A stretch of DNA of 64,000 nt, taken from Ignavibacteriota bacterium. Its GTDB lineage: Bacteria > Bacteroidota > Ignavibacteria > UBA10030. The position numbers and the translations under genes were made by a program. Under the pieces are notes generated by a model. It was not told the origin of the DNA. It did no database searches and worked only from the letters and a program-made list of their open reading frames with translations. Below are positions 26,515-35,589 of the stretch, in pieces; positions within the stretch are counted from its first letter, which is position 1; each line of letters begins with the position of its first letter. The stretch spans positions 1,248,001 to 1,312,000 of the forward strand of contig OY969585.1 of the NCBI GenBank assembly GCA_963701295.1, given 5' to 3'.

Positions 26515-26808
26515 ATGAAGTTTATGAAATATACCATGCGTGATACCGGATTATTTAATGCACATAACAGGAGAATCGCCTTTACAAGAGGCGACGAAAT
26601 TTACGATGGAGACAATCGGAGAGTTGCTACCATGCATGGGAAGTATCTCTTTGATTCAGAAAATAGGAAGATGATGACGGTTCGCGGTGGTTTTATTTTT
26701 GATGCCGACGGTAAGCAGGTTGCTTCGCTTATAGATGCGCAGAAATTGATTGAAGGTGTAGCAAAGGGAATGCAGGCCGGAGCACTTTGGTATTGTTTTA
26801 TCCGGTAG
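26515..26808 (+). CDS. Small beta-repeat protein (four 16-aa repeats; beta-flower-like)
   Basis: LFNAHNRRIAFTRGDE / IYDGDNRRVATMHGKY / LFDSENRKMMTVRGGF / IFDADGKQVASLIDAQ followed by a hydrophobic C-terminal segment. Confidence 0.7.
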   Translation: MKFMKYTMRDTGLFNAHNRRIAFTRGDEIYDGDNRRVATMHGKYLFDSENRKMMTVRGGFIFDADGKQVASLIDAQKLIEGVAKGMQAGALWYCFIR

Positions 26809-27054: not shown

Positions 27055-27660
27055 TTACTCTGCTTTTTGAGCCTTTAGATTTATTTTTCCTTTACTTGCA
27101 AGTCTTGTCAAAAAATATGTAACACTATTCTGTGATAATTTGAAATGTTCGGCAATCTTTTCAGTTTCACTGATTTTGAATTCCCGGATATAATTCATAA
27201 TCTCTTCTTCAATTTGAGCCGACCATTCTTCGAATAGTTGACGAACTTCCGGTGTTGCAAATGTCGCTAATTCGCTCGTCTTGCTCATGGATGACATCAT
27301 TTTTTTGCACATATCCCAGGGCATTTCGTTCTGACCCTCTGTGGATGTTTGATCTCCCATCATATTCATTGGACTTTTACCACCCATCATCATGCTCATC
27401 ATGTTCATCATCGGTGAACCCGAGCCACCTCCCATCATTGAACCCATCATTTTAGGCATCATGGTTTGCATCATCGATTGTTTCTCTTCAGCAGACATTG
27501 TGCCCATGAATTTCTCCATCATGTCCCCCATCATCTTTTGCTTATCTTCTGGCTTCATATCTGCGAAGAACTTGTTCATCATCTGATCCATCATTGCACT
27601 TTTTTCTTCTGATGTCATTTTTCCCATCATGAAGTCCGCCATCATATTTTTAATATTCAT
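27055..27660 (-). CDS. Methionine-rich repeat protein with C-terminal wHTH-like domain
   Basis: 41 Met in 201 aa, 40 of them in the first 125; three 20-aa repeats; AGGAGG RBS; 16 bp downstream of an ArsR gene. Confidence 0.85.
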   Translation of the reverse strand: MNIKNMMADFMMGKMTSEEKSAMMDQMMNKFFADMKPEDKQKMMGDMMEKFMGTMSAEEKQSMMQTMMPKMMGSMMGGGSGSPMMNMMSMMMGGKSPMNMMGDQTSTEGQNEMPWDMCKKMMSSMSKTSELATFATPEVRQLFEEWSAQIEEEIMNYIREFKISETEKIAEHFKLSQNSVTYFLTRLASKGKINLKAQKAE

Positions 27661-27676
27661 TTCGATTCCTCCTATG

Positions 27677-28027
27677 TTATTTTTTGTTAAAGAATTTCAT
27701 CCATTGTTCACCGCACGAAAACATATTTTCTTTTGACCGTGTTTTACTACTGATGTTGATATGAAGTTCCGAGATTATGCCTAGTGCATCAAGCAACCTT
27801 ACATCTGATAATTCATAGTAGATGAAGGGGCCTTCCCTTTTCGTTTTTAAGATATTTTGTTCTCTGAGCACACGAAGGTGGTGTGATACCAGCGGCTGTG
27901 ATAATCCGGACTTTTCGACAACTTCAGAAACGGATCGGCTTTGGTCACCGATAATACGGATAATTCTCAGCCTATTTGCGTCTCCAAGCGTTTGAAAAAG
28001 ATTCTGTAATTTTATTCCATCATCCAT
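27677..28027 (-). CDS. ArsR/SmtB-family transcriptional repressor (1)
   Basis: FQTLGDANRLRII, SQPLVSHHLRVLR, REGPFIYYEL. Confidence 0.93.
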   Translation of the reverse strand: MDDGIKLQNLFQTLGDANRLRIIRIIGDQSRSVSEVVEKSGLSQPLVSHHLRVLREQNILKTKREGPFIYYELSDVRLLDALGIISELHINISSKTRSKENMFSCGEQWMKFFNKK

Positions 28028-28088
28028 ATCAATATCTGCTTATATAAATGGTTGTTTATATGATAATAAATAAACATTGACTTGTCAA
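28026..28088 (-). promoter_or_regulatory. Sigma70 promoter and ArsR-type operator for arsR1 and the Met-rich gene
   Basis: Minus strand TTGACA (28088-28083), 17 nt, TATCAT (28065-28060); perfect inverted repeat ATATAAA-N6-TTTATAT at 28042-28061 plus a degenerate copy at 28026-28045. Confidence 0.75.
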
Positions 28089-28141: not shown

Positions 28142-28188
28142 TTGACATTAAATTCTCATTTTGCTATCATGTTGATATGATTAAACAT
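28142..28188 (+). promoter_or_regulatory. Sigma70 promoter (probably leaderless transcript) and operator for arsR2
   Basis: TTGACA 28142-28147, 17 nt, TG-extended TATCAT 28165-28170, ATG at 28177; inverted repeat ATGTTGA-N6-TAAACAT at 28169-28188. Confidence 0.75.
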
Positions 28189-28494
28189 ATAAAATCATTG
28201 ACCGATTATTGCCAACACCCTGAAGAGTGTTCAGATTTATTTCAGATCCTATCGGATAAAACGCGGCAAGATATTATTATGCTCTTTTCGGCAAAAAAAG
28301 AGATCGGTGTAACAGAAATTGCCAATAATTTTAAACTTAGCCGGCCTACAATTTCGCATCATTTAAATCTAATGCGAAGAACAAGAATTTTGAATTCACG
28401 GAAAGAAGGAAAGGAGATATACTATTCATTTAATAAAGATTCTGTCATAAATATGTTGGAGTCTATTCTTAAAAGCCTTCGAAATTGTTGCTGA
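28177..28494 (+). CDS. ArsR/SmtB-family transcriptional repressor (2)
   Basis: FQILSDKTRQDII, SRPTISHHLNLM, KEGKEIYYS, C-terminal CC; start reassigned from 28114 because of the promoter position. Confidence 0.92.
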   Translation: MIKHIKSLTDYCQHPEECSDLFQILSDKTRQDIIMLFSAKKEIGVTEIANNFKLSRPTISHHLNLMRRTRILNSRKEGKEIYYSFNKDSVINMLESILKSLRNCC

Positions 28495-28510
28495 TATTTT
28501 TTTACTGTAT

Positions 28511-28530
28511 ATGTCGATGTGTGTAAACCT
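28511..28530 (+). promoter_or_regulatory. Second copy of the arsR2 operator, downstream of the gene
   Basis: ATGTCGA-N6-TAAACCT versus upstream ATGTTGA-N6-TAAACAT. Confidence 0.55.
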
Positions 28531-28549
28531 ATAATAAGGAGAATATAAA

Positions 28550-29239
28550 ATGGGTAAAGATGAGAATAAATGTATGATCGAGGTTCCGGTCAATGACACA
28601 AAGGTTATTCAGAATGCGTTCGATATGTGGAGCCGGCTTTATGGGTTTACCGCTGCTCCGGCAGAGAGAAAACCGCGGTTGCGAGGATTGGAACTGGCGG
28701 CCATCCAGCCGAAAGAAAAAGTGCTCGAGGTAGCGGTAGGAACGGGAGCAGCTTTTCTGGAGATATTGAAGCGAGTGGATAAAACTAATGTTGTCACCGG
28801 TGTGGATTTATCACACAGGATGCTGAAAAAGGCCAGACACGCAGCGGCAAAAGCAGGCTTTACAAACATCGATTTGCATCAAAGTGATGCCCGTTCACTT
28901 CCTTTTGAGGATAATTCCTTTGATGTTGTTTTCAATAATTTCATGCTGGACCTGATCCCATTGGATGATATGCCTATCATCTTAAAAGAGTTCTGGCGAG
29001 TGCTTAAAAATGGCGGGCGCCTGGTTTTAGTAAATATGAGTAAGGATAAGGATGGAATGACATTTTATGAGAAAGTCTACCAGGCAACTCCGATTCGTTT
29101 GGTTCCGTACCTTTATGGCGGATGCCGTCCAGTTTTGATGGCTGAGCATACAAGGCAAGCCGGTTTTCAGGATGTGCAACGTGAGTACGTTAAAAACATT
29201 TTTCCTGCTGAGGTTGTCGTAGGGAGAAAAAAAATATGA
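28550..29239 (+). CDS. Class I SAM-dependent methyltransferase (UbiE/Methyltransf_11-like)
   Basis: VLEVAVGTG, GVDLSHRML, LPFEDNSFDVV, RVLKNGG; AAGGAG RBS. Confidence 0.88.
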   Translation: MGKDENKCMIEVPVNDTKVIQNAFDMWSRLYGFTAAPAERKPRLRGLELAAIQPKEKVLEVAVGTGAAFLEILKRVDKTNVVTGVDLSHRMLKKARHAAAKAGFTNIDLHQSDARSLPFEDNSFDVVFNNFMLDLIPLDDMPIILKEFWRVLKNGGRLVLVNMSKDKDGMTFYEKVYQATPIRLVPYLYGGCRPVLMAEHTRQAGFQDVQREYVKNIFPAEVVVGRKKI

Positions 29240-29814
29240 AAGTCTTTCTTCCAGCACAACCGATTCTACTTCCTTCTCCGGTACTTATCATCGGAACATA
29301 TGGCTTGAATAACAGACCTAATATCATGAATGCCGCCTGGGGAGGAATCGCATCAAGCAAACCGCCATGTATCAGTGTATCTCTCAGGGAGGCAACGCTT
29401 AGTTATCACAACATCAAACAGACCGAAGCATTCACAGTGAATATTCCTTCTGAAAAATTTCTCAAGGAGGCTGACTTTGTCGGCATGGTGTCTGGAAGAA
29501 ATTGCGACAAATTCAAGGAAACCCACCTCACACCTGAAAAGAGCAAGCTGGTAAATGCCCCAATCGTAAAAGAATTTCCCTACGCTCTTGAATGCAATCT
29601 GGTCAAGCAAGTTGATCTTGGCTTGCATACAATGTTCATCGGAGAAATTGTCGGAATGGTTGCCGATAGCGAGGTTCTAGATCCAAATAATTTTCCAGAC
29701 ATTGAGAAGGTGCGACCAATGCTATGGGGTTCATTCGGCAGTATGGCATATTATAATATCGGCGATAAACTTGGTGATGCATTCTCCGTTGGGAAAGAAT
29801 TGCAACGCAGTTAA
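29236..29814 (+). CDS. Flavin reductase / flavoredoxin-family protein
   Basis: PSPVLIIGT, NIMNAAWGG, FTVNIPS, LECNL...HTMFIGEI; ATGA overlap with the methyltransferase. Confidence 0.9.
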   Translation: MKVFLPAQPILLPSPVLIIGTYGLNNRPNIMNAAWGGIASSKPPCISVSLREATLSYHNIKQTEAFTVNIPSEKFLKEADFVGMVSGRNCDKFKETHLTPEKSKLVNAPIVKEFPYALECNLVKQVDLGLHTMFIGEIVGMVADSEVLDPNNFPDIEKVRPMLWGSFGSMAYYNIGDKLGDAFSVGKELQRS

Positions 29815-29831: not shown

Positions 29832-30881
29832 TTAACACTGTTTTACGAAGTATGTCTTTTCAATCCAAAGTGAAACATTTACCAAACTGATAAGAACGGG
29901 CACTTCTACCAACGGTCCAATGACAGCTGCAAATGCAACGCCCGAATTAATGCCGAAAACTGCGATTGAGACTGCTATCGCCAATTCAAAGTTATTGCTC
30001 GCAGCCGTAAAGGAAAGTGTTGCGGACTTTGCATAATCGGCTCCTGCCTTCTTTGCAAGATAAAATGATATAAAAAACATCAAGACAAAGTAGACAATAA
30101 GGGGGATAGCAATGCGTAGGACATCCAGAGGAATCTTTACAATGTATTCACCTTTCAGCGAAAACATAACCACGATTGTGAATAAGAGTGCTATCAATGT
30201 CATCGGTGAGATTTTAGGAATAAACTTCTGCTCGTACCATTGCTTGCTTTTCAATCGCAACATTGTGAATCGAGTAATTATTCCAGCAAAGAAAGGAATG
30301 CCGAGATAGATAAAGACCCTTTTAGCTATTTGCCCGATTGTTATATCCACCGCAAATGTATGTAAGCCTAACCAGAAAGGAATAACTGTCAAAAACACAT
30401 AGGCATAGACAGAAAAGAACAGCACTTGGAAGATTGAATTAAAGGCAACAAGTCCCGCAGCATATTCCGTATCTCCTTTTGCCAACTCGTTCCAAACAAT
30501 AACCATGGCAATGCATCGAGCGAGTCCAATGATGATCAGTCCCACCATATATTCAGGATATCCACGAAGAAAAATAATCGCAAGAACAAACATCATCACC
30601 GGTCCTACAAGCCAATTTTGGATAAGTGAAAGGGAAAGCACTTTCATATTTTTGAATACATCACCAAGTTCTTCATACTTCACTTTTGCCAGCGGTGGAT
30701 ACATCATTAGAATCAAACCGATGGCAATAGGAATGTTAGTTGTTCCGGACTGAAAAGAATTCCAGAAATGCATGATTCCCGGGAAAAAATACCCGGAAAG
30801 GATGCCTGTAAACATCGCCAGGAAAATCCAGAGCGTTATAAATCTATCAAAAAACGATAATTGTTTTGTCAAAAAAGTCAT
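29832..30881 (-). CDS. acr3: ACR3-family arsenite efflux transporter
   Basis: [52 protein letters not shown]. Confidence 0.96.
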
Positions 30882-30916
30882 TGTGTGTTCTTTTTCCTTG
30901 CCTATCTCTCATTATG

Positions 30917-31222
30917 TTAATTACAACACGTACCTTCATTGGGGCCGCCGCAGGTAGGAGCTGTTCCATTGAAAGCGCCTTGAATAATTCCCGTTGCACA
31001 ACCGCATCCGTCACCAACGTCCAGTACAATTGCTCCCTGCGGGCAGTTTCTTTTACACGCGCCGCATTCCATACAATAATCTCTACCAGTAATTCGCACT
31101 TTCTTTTCAATGATCTCGAACACCTCATGCGGGCATACCTTAACGCACATCCCGCAATTGTCACATTTTTCTTGAAGCAGTTCGAGTGTTAGAACTTCCG
31201 AAAAATATCTCAGTCTTTCCAT
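30917..31222 (-). CDS. hgcB: Mercury methylation ferredoxin HgcB
   Basis: Two CxxCxxCxxxC motifs (CDNCGMCVKVC, CMECGACKRNC), GCGC and C-terminal CC; 13 bp downstream of hgcA; start MERLRY at 31222. Confidence 0.93.
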   Translation of the reverse strand: MERLRYFSEVLTLELLQEKCDNCGMCVKVCPHEVFEIIEKKVRITGRDYCMECGACKRNCPQGAIVLDVGDGCGCATGIIQGAFNGTAPTCGGPNEGTCCN

Positions 31223-31235
31223 ATGACTATCTTCT

Positions 31236-32249
31236 TTAGATTGTGATTTCAAGAACAAACAGAATGACAGCGAGTGCAGCGAATATAATCTGAACAGGTA
31301 CTGCAATCTTCATTTCTTTCTTAACACCAGCAAGTGAAGTATAAGTTGATGCACCTGTAAAATTCATAGCGAGGAACGATGAAAAATTTGATATAAAGAA
31401 TATTTCAGCGAGGTTTGCTATTAAACTCCCATCCAGAGAATGGTTCAGGAATAATAGTACCGAGACAATTACCCCTATGATGAGTCCCTTAAATGAAAAA
31501 TTTTGCGTAGGAATATATGGGAGAAGTAATGGAGTAAGAACTAATCCTGCAAGATATCCCGCGGCAATAATTTTTGCAATCGGAATAATATTCCTCAATG
31601 CCTGTTGGATTGAATACCCATTTGTATTGATCCCTGAGAGAACAGAGATCACTACTAATAGAGAGAGGAGATAACGAAGGTTATAAATAATATCATTGGG
31701 AATCAGTTTGAGACGATCATACCAATCGAAATTCACGCGTCGCATTTCTTTCGTTGCTTTGTAGCCGGCATGGATGAATGACTGAATATCCGAAGCTCTC
31801 ACCGGACCATAGATGACCGTAAAACCGGAAGATTCTTTTAAGAGATGGGCTGCAACACCTGTTGCGCCAAGCTGCGGAAGGAGAAGCCGTTTGTGTTTAA
31901 CAATTGTACCGAGCGAAGTCGCTTCTATTCTATACACAAGCTCTCTTGTTCCAAATGTTCCTTTTCCAGCTGAACACCAAACATTGACTCCTTTGGTATC
32001 CAAGATCAATAGCCAGATATCCAATCCATTGAGATTCTTACGCAATGTATCAAAGGTGAGCTTATAATTTGCAGTGACGAGAACATCTGAAAAATCATTT
32101 GGTGTGCCAACGGCATATAATCCGGGGGCGACTCGGTAACGATCTCGGCGAATTCCCCAGCGGACTCTGAAAGCACCAAGGTAATCTCTTATGTCCAATT
32201 GTGATGAAATGCGTGGAATCATTCCTGCCGGTGTTTGAATTTCATCCAA
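31236..32249 (-). CDS. hgcA: Mercury methylation corrinoid protein HgcA (core; the native start is probably 32392 across a frameshift)
   Basis: PGLYAVG, VLVTANYKLTFD, cap helix GVNVWCSAGKGTF (NVWCSAGK at 31985-31962), LPQLGATGV, YGPVRASDI, C-terminal TM helices with NFTGASTYTS. Confidence 0.95.
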   Translation of the reverse strand: MDEIQTPAGMIPRISSQLDIRDYLGAFRVRWGIRRDRYRVAPGLYAVGTPNDFSDVLVTANYKLTFDTLRKNLNGLDIWLLILDTKGVNVWCSAGKGTFGTRELVYRIEATSLGTIVKHKRLLLPQLGATGVAAHLLKESSGFTVIYGPVRASDIQSFIHAGYKATKEMRRVNFDWYDRLKLIPNDIIYNLRYLLSLLVVISVLSGINTNGYSIQQALRNIIPIAKIIAAGYLAGLVLTPLLLPYIPTQNFSFKGLIIGVIVSVLLFLNHSLDGSLIANLAEIFFISNFSSFLAMNFTGASTYTSLAGVKKEMKIAVPVQIIFAALAVILFVLEITI

Positions 32250-32392
32250 GATATAACGCCCTTTTTTTTTAAATTGAAGATGGTTTTACTCTCTGCGATT
32301 TGGCAGCCACAATTATCAGCCGGAATTTTCAACTGGAGAGATACCAATTCCTCGGAATTCTCGCAACCGCATGGCTGATTTGAATATCCCAT
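32219..32392 (-). CDS. 57-aa Cys-rich ORF, putative N-terminal segment of HgcA (joined by a -1 shift at A9)
   Basis: ATG 3 nt after the arsC stop; MGYSNQPCGCENSEELVSLQLKIPADNCGCQIAESKTIFNLKKK; the -1 frame continues GRYILDEIQTPAG into HgcA. Confidence 0.7.
   Translation of the reverse strand: MGYSNQPCGCENSEELVSLQLKIPADNCGCQIAESKTIFNLKKKGVISWMKFKHRQE
32261..32273 (-). other. Slippery tract TTT-AAAAAAAAA-G (A9; heptamers T_TTA_AAA and A_AAA_AAG in frame)
   Basis: T9 at 32262-32270 on the plus strand, inside the overlap of the two reading frames. Confidence 0.7.
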
Positions 32393-32395
32393 ATT

Positions 32396-32830
32396 CTATC
32401 TTCGACTATCTTTCAACTTCGATTGATAAAGCTCAAAAAACTTCTCTTTGATTTCATCCCGTACACGCCGAAAAACTGCAAGCACTTCTTCTTCTGTTCC
32501 TGTTGCCTCTGACGGATCATCGAATCTGAAATGGAGACTGTGTTTCACTATTCCGTTAAATACCGGACATGTTTCTTTGGCATGATCGCAGACTGTAATG
32601 ACATAATCGAATGACTCGCTAAGAAATTCATCAACCGACTTTGGATACCCGATACTAATGTTGATTCCCACCTCTTCCATGACCTGAATTGCACGGGAAG
32701 AGACGCGCGATGCCGGATGTGTTCCAGCAGAATAGACTTCCAGGTCCGGATCGAACGATTTCAAAAATCCTTCCGCTATCTGGCTTCTGCAGGAATTACC
32801 GGTGCAGAGGATAAGAATACGCTGCGTCAT
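32396..32830 (-). CDS. arsC: Arsenate reductase, LMW-PTPase (thioredoxin-coupled) type
   Basis: LCTGNSCRSQIAEG, ITVCDHAKETCP, FDDP, FRRVRDEI. Confidence 0.93.
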   Translation of the reverse strand: MTQRILILCTGNSCRSQIAEGFLKSFDPDLEVYSAGTHPASRVSSRAIQVMEEVGINISIGYPKSVDEFLSESFDYVITVCDHAKETCPVFNGIVKHSLHFRFDDPSEATGTEEEVLAVFRRVRDEIKEKFFELYQSKLKDSRR

Positions 32831-32850
32831 AATGATTTCTTTGTTATGAA

Positions 32851-33711
32851 TTATTCATTAATCCATGAAACTGTATATTCAGTGTTTTCTGGAATTTCTA
32901 CCCGGGGGTCTTTGATTACCCATTGTCCATTCAAAGCCAACGCACGTGCAGTGAATTCAAAATGGCACATCGCAATACCCATATCAACGCGTTGTAAATC
33001 GGCAAGTCTGAGAATGTTAAATATCATTGTTCCTTTGCCGTATCCTTTCGTCCGCTGAAGATAAAAATGCCATGCATCACCGATTCGAACAATACGCCAT
33101 GGTTGTTTATTCGAAGCCGATGGAGCCCAGCGAACCATTTCCAATGGCTTAGCATATTCACCAGTAGTATCTACAGATAATGAGTTACCGAATATCTCTG
33201 AAAAGAACAATTGATCTGATGGCAAACGGCGAGCAGCACTCAGGTATTTCCTGATCTGTCCGTTTCTACCTCTTTGCTCCTCATCATATCCGATAGAAAC
33301 AACAGCAGGAATTGATTCTTTCTCACATAACGATATTTTCTTTGCAAAACTGCTCTGGGTAAATGAACCACCAAGCCAGCATGTTCCTACACCAATATTG
33401 GTTGCTGAAAGAATTGCCTGTTCCAGGAGATACCCATAGTCTTCAAGGTTTTTTGATCCTTGCTCAACTGCACCAATAATAAATCCTGTCGGGTTCTTGA
33501 TGAAACCGTATGTGCCGAGTCCTTTCAACGCTTTTCTATCGTCCTGGATAGCAGCAACCAGTTCAAATCGAGCTTTCGTTCCCAGAGGACCAACTTTCAA
33601 TGTTTCTAAAAACCCTCTCAGTTCCTGTTGTTGCGTTTCCTGTACCGGTTCATCAATATAAGAACGGCAGGAATATCGCTGTCTTATGATTTCTTGAATG
33701 GGTTGATTCAT
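32851..33711 (-). CDS. Nitroreductase-family protein (tandem-domain type)
   Basis: RYSCRSY, GTCWLGG, APSASNKQPWR, DMGIAMCHF; alternative start 33729. Confidence 0.88.
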   Translation of the reverse strand: MNQPIQEIIRQRYSCRSYIDEPVQETQQQELRGFLETLKVGPLGTKARFELVAAIQDDRKALKGLGTYGFIKNPTGFIIGAVEQGSKNLEDYGYLLEQAILSATNIGVGTCWLGGSFTQSSFAKKISLCEKESIPAVVSIGYDEEQRGRNGQIRKYLSAARRLPSDQLFFSEIFGNSLSVDTTGEYAKPLEMVRWAPSASNKQPWRIVRIGDAWHFYLQRTKGYGKGTMIFNILRLADLQRVDMGIAMCHFEFTARALALNGQWVIKDPRVEIPENTEYTVSWINE

Positions 33712-33739
33712 TCTTCTTTCCTGAAGCATACCAGCTGAA

Positions 33740-34177
33740 TTATAAATCTAGTTTCATGCATATAGCCGAACTGCAGCAGCAGCTCCCAAATTGTGATGAT
33801 TTCTTCATAGTGTCATTTTTGATAGAAGAACGATCTACAGCAATAAATCCTTTCTTGGCAAAGAACTTCGATGCGGTTTCTGTTAAAAGCACTATCCTCT
33901 TAATATTCCTCTGTTTTGCCAGTGATATCATCCAGTCTACCAATTGTGTACCGATTTGTTTCTTCTGTAAAGAGGTTGGAACAGCCACGGAACGGAGCAG
34001 CGCATCTTCGTCGTAATATTCAAATCCGGCAACTCCAACGATAGCATTATTCTCAACAGCGAGATAGAATTCAGTCATTGTTGTGCCGACTGTTTCTGTT
34101 GGGAGTTTCTGGCTTTCCAGCAGCGAGCGAATGTCTACGGTGTCTTTTTCTGCCGCTTGACGATACGAAATGTTCAT
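33740..34177 (-). CDS. arsN: GNAT acetyltransferase, ArsN2-like
   Basis: ALLRSVAV, LLTETASKFFAKKGF, C-terminal SQFGSCCCSSAICM; coupled to arsM. Confidence 0.8.
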   Translation of the reverse strand: MNISYRQAAEKDTVDIRSLLESQKLPTETVGTTMTEFYLAVENNAIVGVAGFEYYDEDALLRSVAVPTSLQKKQIGTQLVDWMISLAKQRNIKRIVLLTETASKFFAKKGFIAVDRSSIKNDTMKKSSQFGSCCCSSAICMKLDL

Positions 34178-34983
34178 GACTTCTCCGCATAGACTGTTAT
34201 ACTAAATATACCGATGTGACTTCTCTTGTAATCCTGCAATTGATCTACAGTAAGAAATCTAGAAAGAATATCGTTTGGGATATCGATCTTCCTATCCCTT
34301 TGAATGGTGATATTTATGAAACCGGCTTCTTTAATGATCCGCAGATATTCTTCTTTCTGAACAGCACCGGAAATACATCCAGCGTACAATGTCGCTTCAT
34401 TTCGAAGTTCATCTGAAAGTTCGCCTTGCAGAACGATATCCGAAATACTGAAATGTCCACCTGACTTGATAATTCGGAATGCCTCTGCAAATGCTTTTTT
34501 CTTATTAGGCACTAGATTCATAACACAATTGCTCACGACAACATCAGCGGTACCTGTTTCAATGGGCATATTGTCTATATCACCCAAACGGAATTCCACA
34601 TTCTTGAATCCGAGTTTTTCTGCATTCGTTCGTGCCTTTACAATCATCGCTTCTGTCATATCAATTCCGATAACACGTCCGGTTTCGCTGACGATGGAAC
34701 GCGCAATAAAGCAATCATTCCCTGCGCCCGAACCAAGATCGATAACTGTGTCGCCTGATTTGATTTGAGCAAACTCTGTCGGCAAGCCGCATCCTAATGC
34801 AAGATCAGCATCGGGGACATAGCCGGGAAGTTTTGTATAATCTTCAGCCATGATCGAAAAATCCACATTCGAACATCCGCAGCCGCTGCCGCAGCAAGAG
34901 GATTGGTTCTGCTCTTTGGTTTGCTGTGCAATGGCTCCGTATTTCTCTTTCACCATTTCTTTGATCTCTCGTTCGGTATTCAT
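34174..34983 (-). CDS. arsM: Arsenite S-adenosylmethionine methyltransferase
   Basis: VKEKYG, SSCCG, LGCGLP, DLGSGAGND, SNCVMNL, YAGCISGA; conserved Cys present. Confidence 0.95.
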   Translation of the reverse strand: MNTEREIKEMVKEKYGAIAQQTKEQNQSSCCGSGCGCSNVDFSIMAEDYTKLPGYVPDADLALGCGLPTEFAQIKSGDTVIDLGSGAGNDCFIARSIVSETGRVIGIDMTEAMIVKARTNAEKLGFKNVEFRLGDIDNMPIETGTADVVVSNCVMNLVPNKKKAFAEAFRIIKSGGHFSISDIVLQGELSDELRNEATLYAGCISGAVQKEEYLRIIKEAGFINITIQRDRKIDIPNDILSRFLTVDQLQDYKRSHIGIFSITVYAEKS

Positions 34984-35004
34984 ATGTCATTCTCCTATAA
35001 ATAA

Positions 35005-35024
35005 CTATCGCAATATTACGATAG
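35005..35024. promoter_or_regulatory. ArsR operator copy between arsR3 and arsM
   Basis: CTATCGCAATATTACGATAG near-perfect palindrome matching 35371-35388. Confidence 0.75.
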
Positions 35025-35041
35025 ATGAGTATAAAAAATTT

Positions 35042-35362
35042 TCAACAACACGATTTCACGTTATTCAGAAACTGAGCAAGAATCTGTTTTGCTTCCTGCC
35101 ATGCTTTTTTATTAATGCAGTAACACACCTTCGGTCCTTCAATCTCGCCTTTGATTAGACCGATACGTTTCAATTCAGCAAGATGTTGTGATACAGTCGC
35201 CTGAGACAGGGGGAGTTCTTCCACAATGTCGCCGCAAACACAAGCATTTTGTTTAGCTAGGAATTCTAGAATTGCAATTCGTGCCGGATGTGCAAAAGCT
35301 TTCCCGAGATCCGCGAGGCGATTCTGACTGTTGCTAAAAACTTCTTTCTTTGATGTTCCCAT
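35042..35362 (-). CDS. arsR: ArsR arsenic-responsive repressor (3), first gene of the ars/hgc operon
   Basis: KAFAHPARIAIL, ACVCGD, SQATVSQHL, C-terminal CC; start reassigned to MGTSK at 35362. Confidence 0.93.
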   Translation of the reverse strand: MGTSKKEVFSNSQNRLADLGKAFAHPARIAILEFLAKQNACVCGDIVEELPLSQATVSQHLAELKRIGLIKGEIEGPKVCYCINKKAWQEAKQILAQFLNNVKSCC

Positions 35363-35370
35363 AATTCTTA

Positions 35371-35388
35371 TATCGTAATAATACGATA
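35371..35388. promoter_or_regulatory. ArsR operator upstream of arsR3
   Basis: Perfect inverted repeat TATCGTA-ataa-TACGATA, 8 nt upstream of the start codon. Confidence 0.8.
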
Positions 35389-35455
35389 GAAGTTTCACAA
35401 AAACAAGAAAAAAATGAGATGATGCCTTTATACGCGGGAAAATGGGTCGTTCTGT

Positions 35456-35502
35456 AAAAAAACTTCTGGCTTTCCGAAGAAAAAACCTAAAACTGGAAAG
35501 CC
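35456..35502 (-). terminator. Putative intrinsic terminator after ftsZ
   Basis: GGCTTTCC/GGAAAGCC 8-bp stem with a 19-nt loop, followed on the minus strand by AGAAG-T7. Confidence 0.45.
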
Positions 35503-35589
35503 GCAAATGCGTGAGTCATCCCTCATTCCCACCGTGCAAGGAGAGAAGAGAAAGTACATCACTTCTATCAATATGAAATAGCCGCCCGA

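What the first reader, a model, noticed from the sequence alone, without database searches (positions are those of the whole stretch)
27055..27660. ArsR-controlled protein that is 20% methionine, with 20-aa repeats fused to a wHTH-like tail
Seen: 41 of 201 residues are Met. Repeats MTSEEKSAMMDQMMNKFFAD / MKPEDKQKMMGDMMEKFMGT / MSAEEKQSMMQTMMPKMMGS are followed by an M/G/S low-complexity linker, a single Cys (PWDMCKKMM) and a C-terminus (KIAEHFKLSQNSVTYFLTRLASKGKI) that looks like a winged helix. There is no signal peptide. Established: Met clusters bind Cu(I)/Ag(I) and scavenge oxidants such as HOCl. Inference: a cytoplasmic soft-metal sponge or sensor, or a Met reserve next to SAM-consuming methylases. 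I do not recognise it as a characterised family.
Basis: partly seen in the sequence, partly recalled or inferred. Interest (0 to 1): 0.75.

Follow-up and report, generated by a model that had tools for sequence, protein, structure and literature searches.

The report
Methionine-rich, selenium-free TsoA relative
A real, conserved gene whose product is one-fifth methionine and is a selenium-free cousin of the untested selenoprotein TsoA; it always follows its own repressor gene and likely binds a sulfur-loving metal or metalloid such as arsenic or mercury for that repressor.

Summary
The 201-aa ORF has 41 Met (next-highest ORF in the genome 8%), three 20-aa helical repeats, one Cys that is invariant in 114 of 114 aligned homologs, and a winged-helix tail. 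It belongs to an uncharacterised family of anaerobes from about ten phyla. It aligns with the selenoprotein TsoA over nearly all of TsoA's length (profile probability 99.7%; the repeat part is weak), but it lacks the Sec motif and scores below the family cut-off. An ArsR gene (TsoR-like) lies directly upstream in 61 of 69 loci, behind a conserved palindromic operator that true tsoR genes share. In this genome that operator occurs only at this promoter. Ars/hgcA genes lie nearby in 18 of 69 loci, yet close kin carry the same ars-hgcAB cluster without the cassette. Best reading (45%): a soft-metal(loid)-binding sensor/sink that serves its repressor. Ligand, binding to the repressor and DNA binding are all untested. 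Neighbourhoods point to As/Hg rather than Cu/Ag, and a methionine reserve is unlikely. This scan noted the same family before on other genomes (three notes). Verdict: new variant of a named but untested system.

The parts
27055..27660 (-). Met-rich TsoA-like gene (201 aa, P0001)
27439..27618 (-). Three 20-aa amphipathic helical repeats (aa 15-74) with an MMxxMMxxF face; weakly homologous to the Leu/Ile-based N-terminal helices of TsoA
27322..27438 (-). M/G/S linker (aa 75-113, low pLDDT) with a short Met helix (aa 84-91); lies where TsoA carries its Sec-x3-Cys motif
27253..27321 (-). Conserved P-W-D-M-C helix (aa 114-136); C118 codon at 27307-27309, equivalent to the third thiol (PKDMC) of TsoA
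27076..27252 (-). Conserved acidic helix (TPEVRxLFEEWxxQIEEE) and winged-helix-like domain (aa 137-195); DNA-facing positions of the recognition helix vary
27668..27673 (-). AGGAGG ribosome-binding site of the Met-rich gene
   Evidence: read from the sequence
27677..28027 (-). TsoR-like ArsR/SmtB repressor (116 aa): SQPLVSHHL recognition helix, no alpha3 CxC site, one Cys in a C-terminal tail
28026..28061 (.). Two overlapping palindromic operator sites ATATAAA-N6-TTTATAT (28026-28045 and 28042-28061, 16-bp period) covering the -10 box, the leader and the start of the ATG
28060..28088 (-). sigma70-type promoter TTGACA (28083-28088), 17 nt, TATCAT (28060-28065)
29832..35506 (-). Context, not part of the cassette: arsR-arsM-arsN2-nitroreductase-arsC-hgcA-hgcB-acr3 cluster (hgcA 31236-32249, hgcB 30917-31306, acr3 29832-30881)
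   Evidence: HgcA, HgcB, Acr3, ArsM, ArsN2 over NCBIfam cut-offs; ArsC below its cut-off, Pfam LMWPc

Best explanation
This is the second gene of a two-gene cassette with a TsoR-like ArsR repressor; its product is a selenium-free relative of TsoA and likely acts as a cytoplasmic sensor and sink for a sulfur-loving metal or metalloid (As(III)/organoarsenic or Hg(II) most likely) that works with that repressor. Shown: the gene, the homology to TsoA, the fixed pairing with the ArsR, the conserved operator, and loss of the Sec motif. Inferred: the ArsR dimer binds the tandem palindromes and shuts off its own promoter. Inferred: ligand is captured by Cys118, helped by the Met-lined helices that replace TsoA's Sec/Cys/Cys set, possibly together with the Cys on the repressor's tail. 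Inferred: the conserved acidic helix and winged helix contact the repressor or its DNA complex rather than reading a site of their own, so ligand relieves repression and more of the sulfur-rich protein is made to hold the ion.
For: Homology to TsoA: NCBIfam hit on aa 114-190, E 3.4e-16; profile-profile probability 99.7%, 147 columns over aa 28-194. A TsoA N-terminal HMM scores >=8 bits on 31 of 121 family N-termini against 0 of 119 shuffled and 0 of 120 reversed copies that were reported. True TsoA has U-x3-C in 39 of 39 and the third Cys in 38 of 39; its operons hold an ArsM/DUF2284 selenoprotein, TsoB, TsoC and TsoX. ArsR lies directly upstream in 61 of 69 loci; 2 more have it in the same operon, 4 are at contig ends. 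The operator is present in 57 of 61 upstream regions (shuffles: mean 1.8, max 6) and scores >=17 bits before 25 of 33 true tsoR genes. It is the only tandem site in this genome, so the Met protein is the only other product found under this repressor. The repressor has no alpha3 CxC site (0 of 62). A tail Cys is present in 57 of 62 Met-family ArsRs and 0 of 32 true TsoRs, the mirror of the partner's ligand count. acr3/arsC/arsM/hgcA lie within 8 kb in 18 of 69 loci against 1.1% of same-size windows in this genome. Met holds 2206 of 2300 cells on the repeat faces, while Leu/Ile/Val hold the wHTH core. His/Met motifs bind Ag(I) in SilE (PMC5008109, passages read).
Against: No binding, induction or knockout data exist. 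51 of 69 loci show none of the four ars/hgc genes (many contigs are short; 27 of 38 loci of 14 kb or more lack them). hgcA passes its cut-off in 14 of 61 related genomes but the gene is in only 6 of them, and it is in 2 genomes without hgcA. G001 and G009 carry the same ars-hgcAB-acr3 block without the cassette. By established chemistry (my knowledge), thioethers bind As(III) and Hg(II) poorly and one Cys per chain is not a full site, and SilE-type binding needs His, which is scarce here. The Mets lie on the hydrophobic helix face and may be structural. The repeats' match to TsoA is weak for this protein itself (3.4 bits). 21 of 66 loci in the tree set have no counted repeat (crude pattern count), so the repeats are dispensable. 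The tail-Cys contrast is one split between two clades, not many independent events.
Confidence: 0.45

Rival explanations
1. Pure accessory subunit (co-repressor or anti-repressor). The Met-lined helices are a pliable hydrophobic surface that grips the repressor or another protein, as Met-rich surfaces do in SRP54 or calmodulin (recalled), and the Mets bind no metal; only Cys118 may sense.
For: Fixed pairing in 61 of 69 loci and directly after tsoR in the Tso loci. The Mets sit on one helix face and align with Leu/Ile in TsoA. The best-conserved stretch is the acidic helix before the HTH. The repeat module can be a separate gene under the same operator (L068).
Against: In this genome the repressor's only strong site is its own promoter, so a purely regulatory pair would have no output found here. 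No named look-alike was found for aa 1-95.
Confidence: 0.25
2. Oxidant or reactive-sulfur sensor and scavenger. The Mets and Cys118 absorb HOCl, peroxide or persulfide in an anaerobe, as Sec and Cys would in TsoA.
For: 41 oxidisable Met. Tso operons and some neighbours encode thioredoxin-like, DsbD-like, rhodanese, DsrC/TusE and C_GCAxxG proteins.
Against: No Msr, catalase or rubrerythrin cluster recurred among the neighbour clusters or the 113 neighbours scanned. Strict positional conservation of Met is more than scavenging would need.
Confidence: 0.15
3. A stand-alone second-tier transcription factor that reads its own DNA sites through the winged helix.
For: Confident wHTH fold, basic C-terminal end (net +4 over aa 166-201), Pfam FaeA just over its cut-off.
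Against: Positions that match the DNA-reading residues of the ArsR (100% conserved in 51 rows) are variable here: 50%, 34% and 37% conservation, with acidic residues in 61 of 114 rows at position 178. No beta wing is modelled. Related forms keep the Met repeats with a Cys cluster and no wHTH.
Confidence: 0.1
4. A methionine or sulfur store that feeds SAM-consuming methylases (ArsM, HgcAB).
For: arsM, hgcAB and another methyltransferase lie within 8 kb in the window. An ArsR that responds to arsenic and SAH controls hgcAB in P. mercurii ND132 (10.1101/2022.10.17.512643, abstract read).
Against: arsM is near in 3 of 69 loci and hgcA in 7 of 69. Met positions are fixed. TsoA does the homologous job with 4.6% Met. 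Kin methylators lack the gene.
Confidence: 0.05

Closest known systems
TsoA / TsoR of the Tso 'three selenoprotein operon' (NCBIfam NF045695, NF045707; Haft and Tolstoy 2025, seen only as cited in the review PMC13188914)
   Same: Same gene order (ArsR then partner), same SQPLVSHHL recognition helix, same operator palindrome, homologous C-terminal PxxMC helix + acidic helix + wHTH, and weakly homologous N-terminal helical repeats.
   Different: No in-frame TGA or LULAxC motif; 20% Met against 4.6%; three repeats against about two; scores below both cut-offs (59.9 of 170; 94.5 of 115); the repressor has a Cys tail that TsoR lacks; no tsoB/tsoC; separate branch in the tree (SH-aLRT 98, quick tree); genome shows no selA, selD or tRNA-Sec.
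SilE / PcoE Met-His 'molecular sponges' (PMC5008109, passages read)
   Same: Repeated helical Met-rich motifs, low-confidence fold without ligand.
   Different: Those are periplasmic and depend on His plus Met motifs; this protein is cytoplasmic, nearly His-free, carries a Cys and a wHTH, and showed no Pfam or PDB sequence match to them.
SmtB-SmtA metallothionein cassette (recalled, no call)
   Same: An ArsR/SmtB repressor whose main output is one small sulfur-rich protein.
   Different: SmtA is Cys-rich and divergently transcribed and SmtB has an alpha5 His site; here the payload is Met-rich with a wHTH, co-oriented, and no such site is seen in the repressor.
ArsR-controlled ars/hgcAB clusters (10.1101/2022.10.17.512643, abstract read)
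   Same: The window holds arsR-arsM-arsC-hgcA-hgcB-acr3 next to the cassette.
   Different: The cassette's operator is absent before the ars/hgc genes and the cassette is optional in kin.

Membership tests
TsoA (NF045695) | Whole-protein score at or above 170 bits | tested here: not met
   59.9 bits; 0 of 147 further relatives reach it; a true TsoA read with TGA=U scores 207.5
TsoA (NF045695) | LULAxC motif with in-frame TGA (Sec) | tested here: not met
   No in-frame TGA and a single Cys; no selA, no selD over cut-off, no tRNA-Sec in a 99% complete genome
TsoA (NF045695) | Homologous C-terminal PxxMC + acidic helix + wHTH region | tested here: met
   72.9 bits with an HMM of 39 TsoA sequences; hhalign 99.7%
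TsoA (NF045695) | Encoded directly after a TsoR-type ArsR with the TsoR operator | tested here: met
   the ArsR's best NCBIfam hit is TsoR but at 94.5 bits, under the 115 cut-off
Tso operon | tsoB and tsoC selenoprotein genes in the operon | tested here: not met
   None of the 14 neighbouring proteins scanned hits them; the next gene downstream is convergent
SilE/PcoE sponges | Periplasmic, with conserved His-Met motifs | tested here: not met
   One His, in the HTH; 0-4 His across 121 sequences; no signal-like N-terminus by inspection
SilE/PcoE sponges | Binds several Ag(I)/Cu(I) and folds on binding | not testable with these tools
   Needs ICP-MS, ITC and CD
FaeA/PapI-like wHTH regulators (PF04703) | Pfam gathering score | tested here: inconclusive
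   22 bits against 20.7 over aa 151-194, with several other wHTH families at similar weak scores
Winged-helix DNA-binding proteins | Sequence-specific DNA binding | not testable with these tools
   Fold present; DNA-facing residues vary

The most novel reading that the evidence does not exclude
A two-protein metalloregulator: an ArsR/SmtB repressor with no canonical sensing site that senses through a dedicated partner. The ligands are shared between the two chains and traded in evolution, either Sec+Cys+Cys all on TsoA with a tail-less TsoR, or one Cys in a methionine cage on the partner plus a Cys on the repressor's tail. Methionine would then stand in for selenocysteine in organisms without selenium machinery.
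Probability: 0.25. Interest if true: 0.8.

Novelty: new variant of a known kind. Interest (0 to 1): 0.5.

Why it matters
TsoA and TsoR are known only as database families. A selenium-free version that comes with its operator in a compact two-gene cassette can be expressed in a laboratory strain, which makes the signal and role of the whole TsoR/TsoA system testable. If the partner is the sensor, it adds a new sensing mode to the ArsR/SmtB family. The cassette often sits by arsenic and mercury-methylation genes in peat and sediment anaerobes, so it may bear on how these organisms handle As and Hg, although it is not needed to carry hgcAB.

Tried and rejected
Complex prediction of the ArsR dimer with the Met protein: the queue was full and no job ran, so binding stays untested. 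Haft and Tolstoy 2025 is not held by the library; it may already mention Met-rich non-Sec homologs. PDB sequence search: 0 hits at E<=0.01. Foldseek: none at E<=0.001. The fold searches tested only aa 137-201; the repeat region was not folded alone. ESM Atlas: only hypothetical or generic wHTH clusters for the whole protein and no usable named hit for aa 1-95. Expression: one peat metatranscriptome held 10% of the words, as contigs of relatives only, so it shows neither transcription nor start site. A weaker operator-like site (16.2 bits) over the promoter of a C_GCAxxG gene at genome position 484514 was rejected: it is within the range of column-permuted matrices (mean 10.9 sites >=14 bits) and is absent before the orthologs in G004 and G052. 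No terminator-like site was found right after the gene. A search of 401 genomes drawn from the phylum of one Desulfovibrio-titled record found no TsoA over cut-off; true TsoA came from metagenome contigs. The tree is the quick one (86 columns, careful search unfinished; L019 and L066 left out, L048 and L121 dropped for lack of the anchor motif). Three weak genome hits (E>=6.8e-5; G007, G023, G031) were not counted as homologs. Literature searches for a Met-rich ArsR partner found nothing relevant.

Full report
Observation. Window 27055-27660 (minus strand) encodes a 201-aa protein with 41 Met, one Cys and one His. It is the most Met-rich of 2499 ORFs of 150 aa or more in its genome; the next has 8.0% and the pool 2.4%. 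The three 20-aa repeats are at 27439-27618. AlphaFold on a 114-row alignment gives helices for the repeats at modest confidence (pLDDT 62-70), a disordered linker, and a confident domain at aa 141-190. That domain matches winged-helix folds (best Z 9.4, rmsd 1.0, 55 residues). The nearest relatives with named records are Ignavibacteriota/Bacteroidota (92% identity).

Family. The first search gave 212 relatives. In the 121 sequences examined the Met fraction is 13-26% and C118 is kept in all; this set was selected by a Met-rich query. In 69 genome loci from about ten phyla of mostly anaerobic lineages the conserved core is P-x-x-M-C, then TPE[VI]RxLF[ED][ED]WxxQ[IV][ED]xE, then the wHTH. The Cys pattern was found in 62 of 69; by inspection 2 of the 7 misses are pattern misses, 2 are fragments and 3 (two of them near-identical) lack it. 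The number of repeats runs from none to three. On the repeat faces Met holds 2206 of 2300 cells, whereas the wHTH core is Leu/Ile/Val in 1353 of 1477, so Met is kept on purpose there.

Link to TsoA. NCBIfam's only hit is the selenoprotein TsoA, below cut-off (59.9 of 170 bits), and the upstream ArsR's best hit is TsoR (94.5 of 115). I recovered true TsoA loci from metagenome contigs. Read with TGA as Sec they show U-[LI]-A-x-C in 39 of 39 and a further Cys in 38 of 39. One tested passes the TsoA cut-off, one tested regulator passes TsoR, and the operons hold TsoB, TsoC, TsoX, a GcvH-like protein and an ArsM/DUF2284 selenoprotein. Profile comparison aligns aa 28-194 with nearly all of TsoA (99.7%, E 3.6e-26). 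The C-terminal half is strong. The repeats align with TsoA's Leu/Ile helices more weakly (31 of 121 family N-termini reach 8 bits against none of the shuffled or reversed controls; this protein itself only 3.4 bits). The Met/Gly linker falls, at low confidence, where TsoA has its Sec-x3-Cys motif. TsoA has a median 4.6% Met. The two groups separate in a quick tree (SH-aLRT 98, 86 columns). The host genome shows no selA, no selD over cut-off and no tRNA-Sec. So this is a homolog of TsoA, not a member.

Regulation. An ArsR gene lies directly upstream in 61 of 69 loci; in L029 a methyltransferase gene intervenes, in L068 the order is operator, stand-alone Met-repeat gene, ArsR, core gene; four loci end too early to tell and two fragments show none. 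The promoter is TTGACA-17-TATCAT (28088 to 28060), followed by two palindromes ATATAAA-N6-TTTATAT at a 16-bp period that reach the start codon (28026-28061). Such sites occur in 57 of 61 upstream regions (shuffles mean 1.8, max 6). The matrix built from them scores 17 bits or more before 25 of 33 true tsoR genes, in line with the shared SQPLVSHHL helix. In this genome only these two sites reach 17 bits, and none lies before the ars or hgc genes. Autorepression is inferred from this layout, not measured. The repressor has no alpha3 CxC site (0 of 62) and no His pair is seen at alpha5. It has a Cys in a C-terminal tail in 57 of 62 cases, while 0 of 32 true TsoRs do. That mirrors the partner's ligands (one Cys here, Sec+Cys+Cys in TsoA), but it is a single contrast between two clades.

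Is the wHTH a DNA reader? The positions matching the repressor's invariant Q44, P45 and S48 are only 50%, 34% and 37% conserved, and position 178 is acidic in 61 of 114 rows. No beta wing is modelled. A protein-contact or non-specific DNA role is therefore more likely than reading its own site; this is inference.

Neighbourhood. In the window the cassette lies beside arsR-arsM-arsN2-nitroreductase-arsC-hgcA-hgcB-acr3. Across 69 loci, acr3 is within 8 kb in 15, arsC in 8, hgcA in 7 and arsM in 3; any of them in 18, against 1.1% of same-size windows in this one genome. ArsP, DGC-domain, small thioredoxin-like and SHOCT genes also recur. No copper or silver efflux genes formed a cluster of three or more loci. 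The link is loose, though: among 61 related genomes the gene is in 8, hgcA in 14 and both in 6, and G001 and G009 have the same ars-hgcAB-acr3 block without the cassette. One contig of a relative in a peat run also joins across the block.

Mechanism. The best-supported reading (0.45) is a soft-metal(loid) sensor and sink that serves its repressor: the only other product found under the operator, sulfur ligands in place of TsoA's Sec/Cys, and As/Hg-leaning neighbours. Rivals are a pure accessory subunit with a Met-lined binding surface (0.25), an oxidant or persulfide sensor/scavenger (0.15), an independent transcription factor (0.10) and a Met store (0.05). Against the best reading: thioethers are weak ligands for As(III) and Hg(II) (my knowledge), His is nearly absent, the repeats are dispensable in the family, and nothing has been measured.

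Literature. The review PMC13188914 (passages) lists TsoA and the Tso operon and gives no function. The source paper was not available, and its supplements were not seen. The hgcAB/ArsR preprint 10.1101/2022.10.17.512643 was read as abstract and section list, and SilE (PMC5008109) as passages. Searches found no description of a Met-rich ArsR partner. SmtA/SmtB, SRP54, calmodulin and the alpha3/alpha5 site names are recalled. This scan has noted the same or a related family on other genomes (e1-1450645, e1-1423785, e1-4446102). My TsoA lead came, before those notes were seen, and they are not independent support.

Verdict. A real, uncharacterised protein; a new, selenium-free and methionine-rich variant of the TsoR/TsoA module; function inferred only. 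Interest 0.5.

Noticed in passing
window 30917-32249 (-): hgcA (419 bits, motif NVWCSAGK) and hgcB inside an ars operon (arsR-arsM-arsN2-nitroreductase-arsC-hgcA-hgcB-acr3); hgcA is over cut-off in 12 of the 16 genomes of this genus searched, this one included.
   Followed up: partly
window 28142-29814 (+): A second, divergent ArsR (Cys-Cys C-terminus, likely start 28177) with its own TTGACA-17-TATCAT promoter, followed by a SAM methyltransferase and a flavin reductase-like gene; back to back with the cassette's promoter.
   Followed up: no
P0202, P0211, P0240, P0251, P0259 (protein sets; no DNA fetched): Proteins of 138-167 aa with the same Met repeats ending in PWxxCPCxxLC and no winged helix; P0233 has Met repeats alone. 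No convincing Pfam match for those tested.
   Followed up: partly
L068:975-2673: Split form: three operator sites, a stand-alone 102-aa gene with 30% Met, then the ArsR, the core gene and a small membrane-protein gene.
   Followed up: partly
L116:2251-2767 and L116:4800-5267: One contig carries both a short Met-type gene behind tandem operators and a Sec-type TsoA.
   Followed up: partly
L142:5527-6592: Tandem operator sites lie after tsoA, before a TsoX/ArsM-like selenoprotein gene, suggesting that TsoR controls it directly.
   Followed up: partly
window 26515-26808 (+): Small beta-flower domain protein convergent with the cassette, conserved next to acr3 in kin that lack the cassette.
   Followed up: no
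L063:7902-8734, L098:1089-1722: Tandem paralogs or halves of the short form behind one ArsR in spore-forming Bacillota.
   Followed up: no
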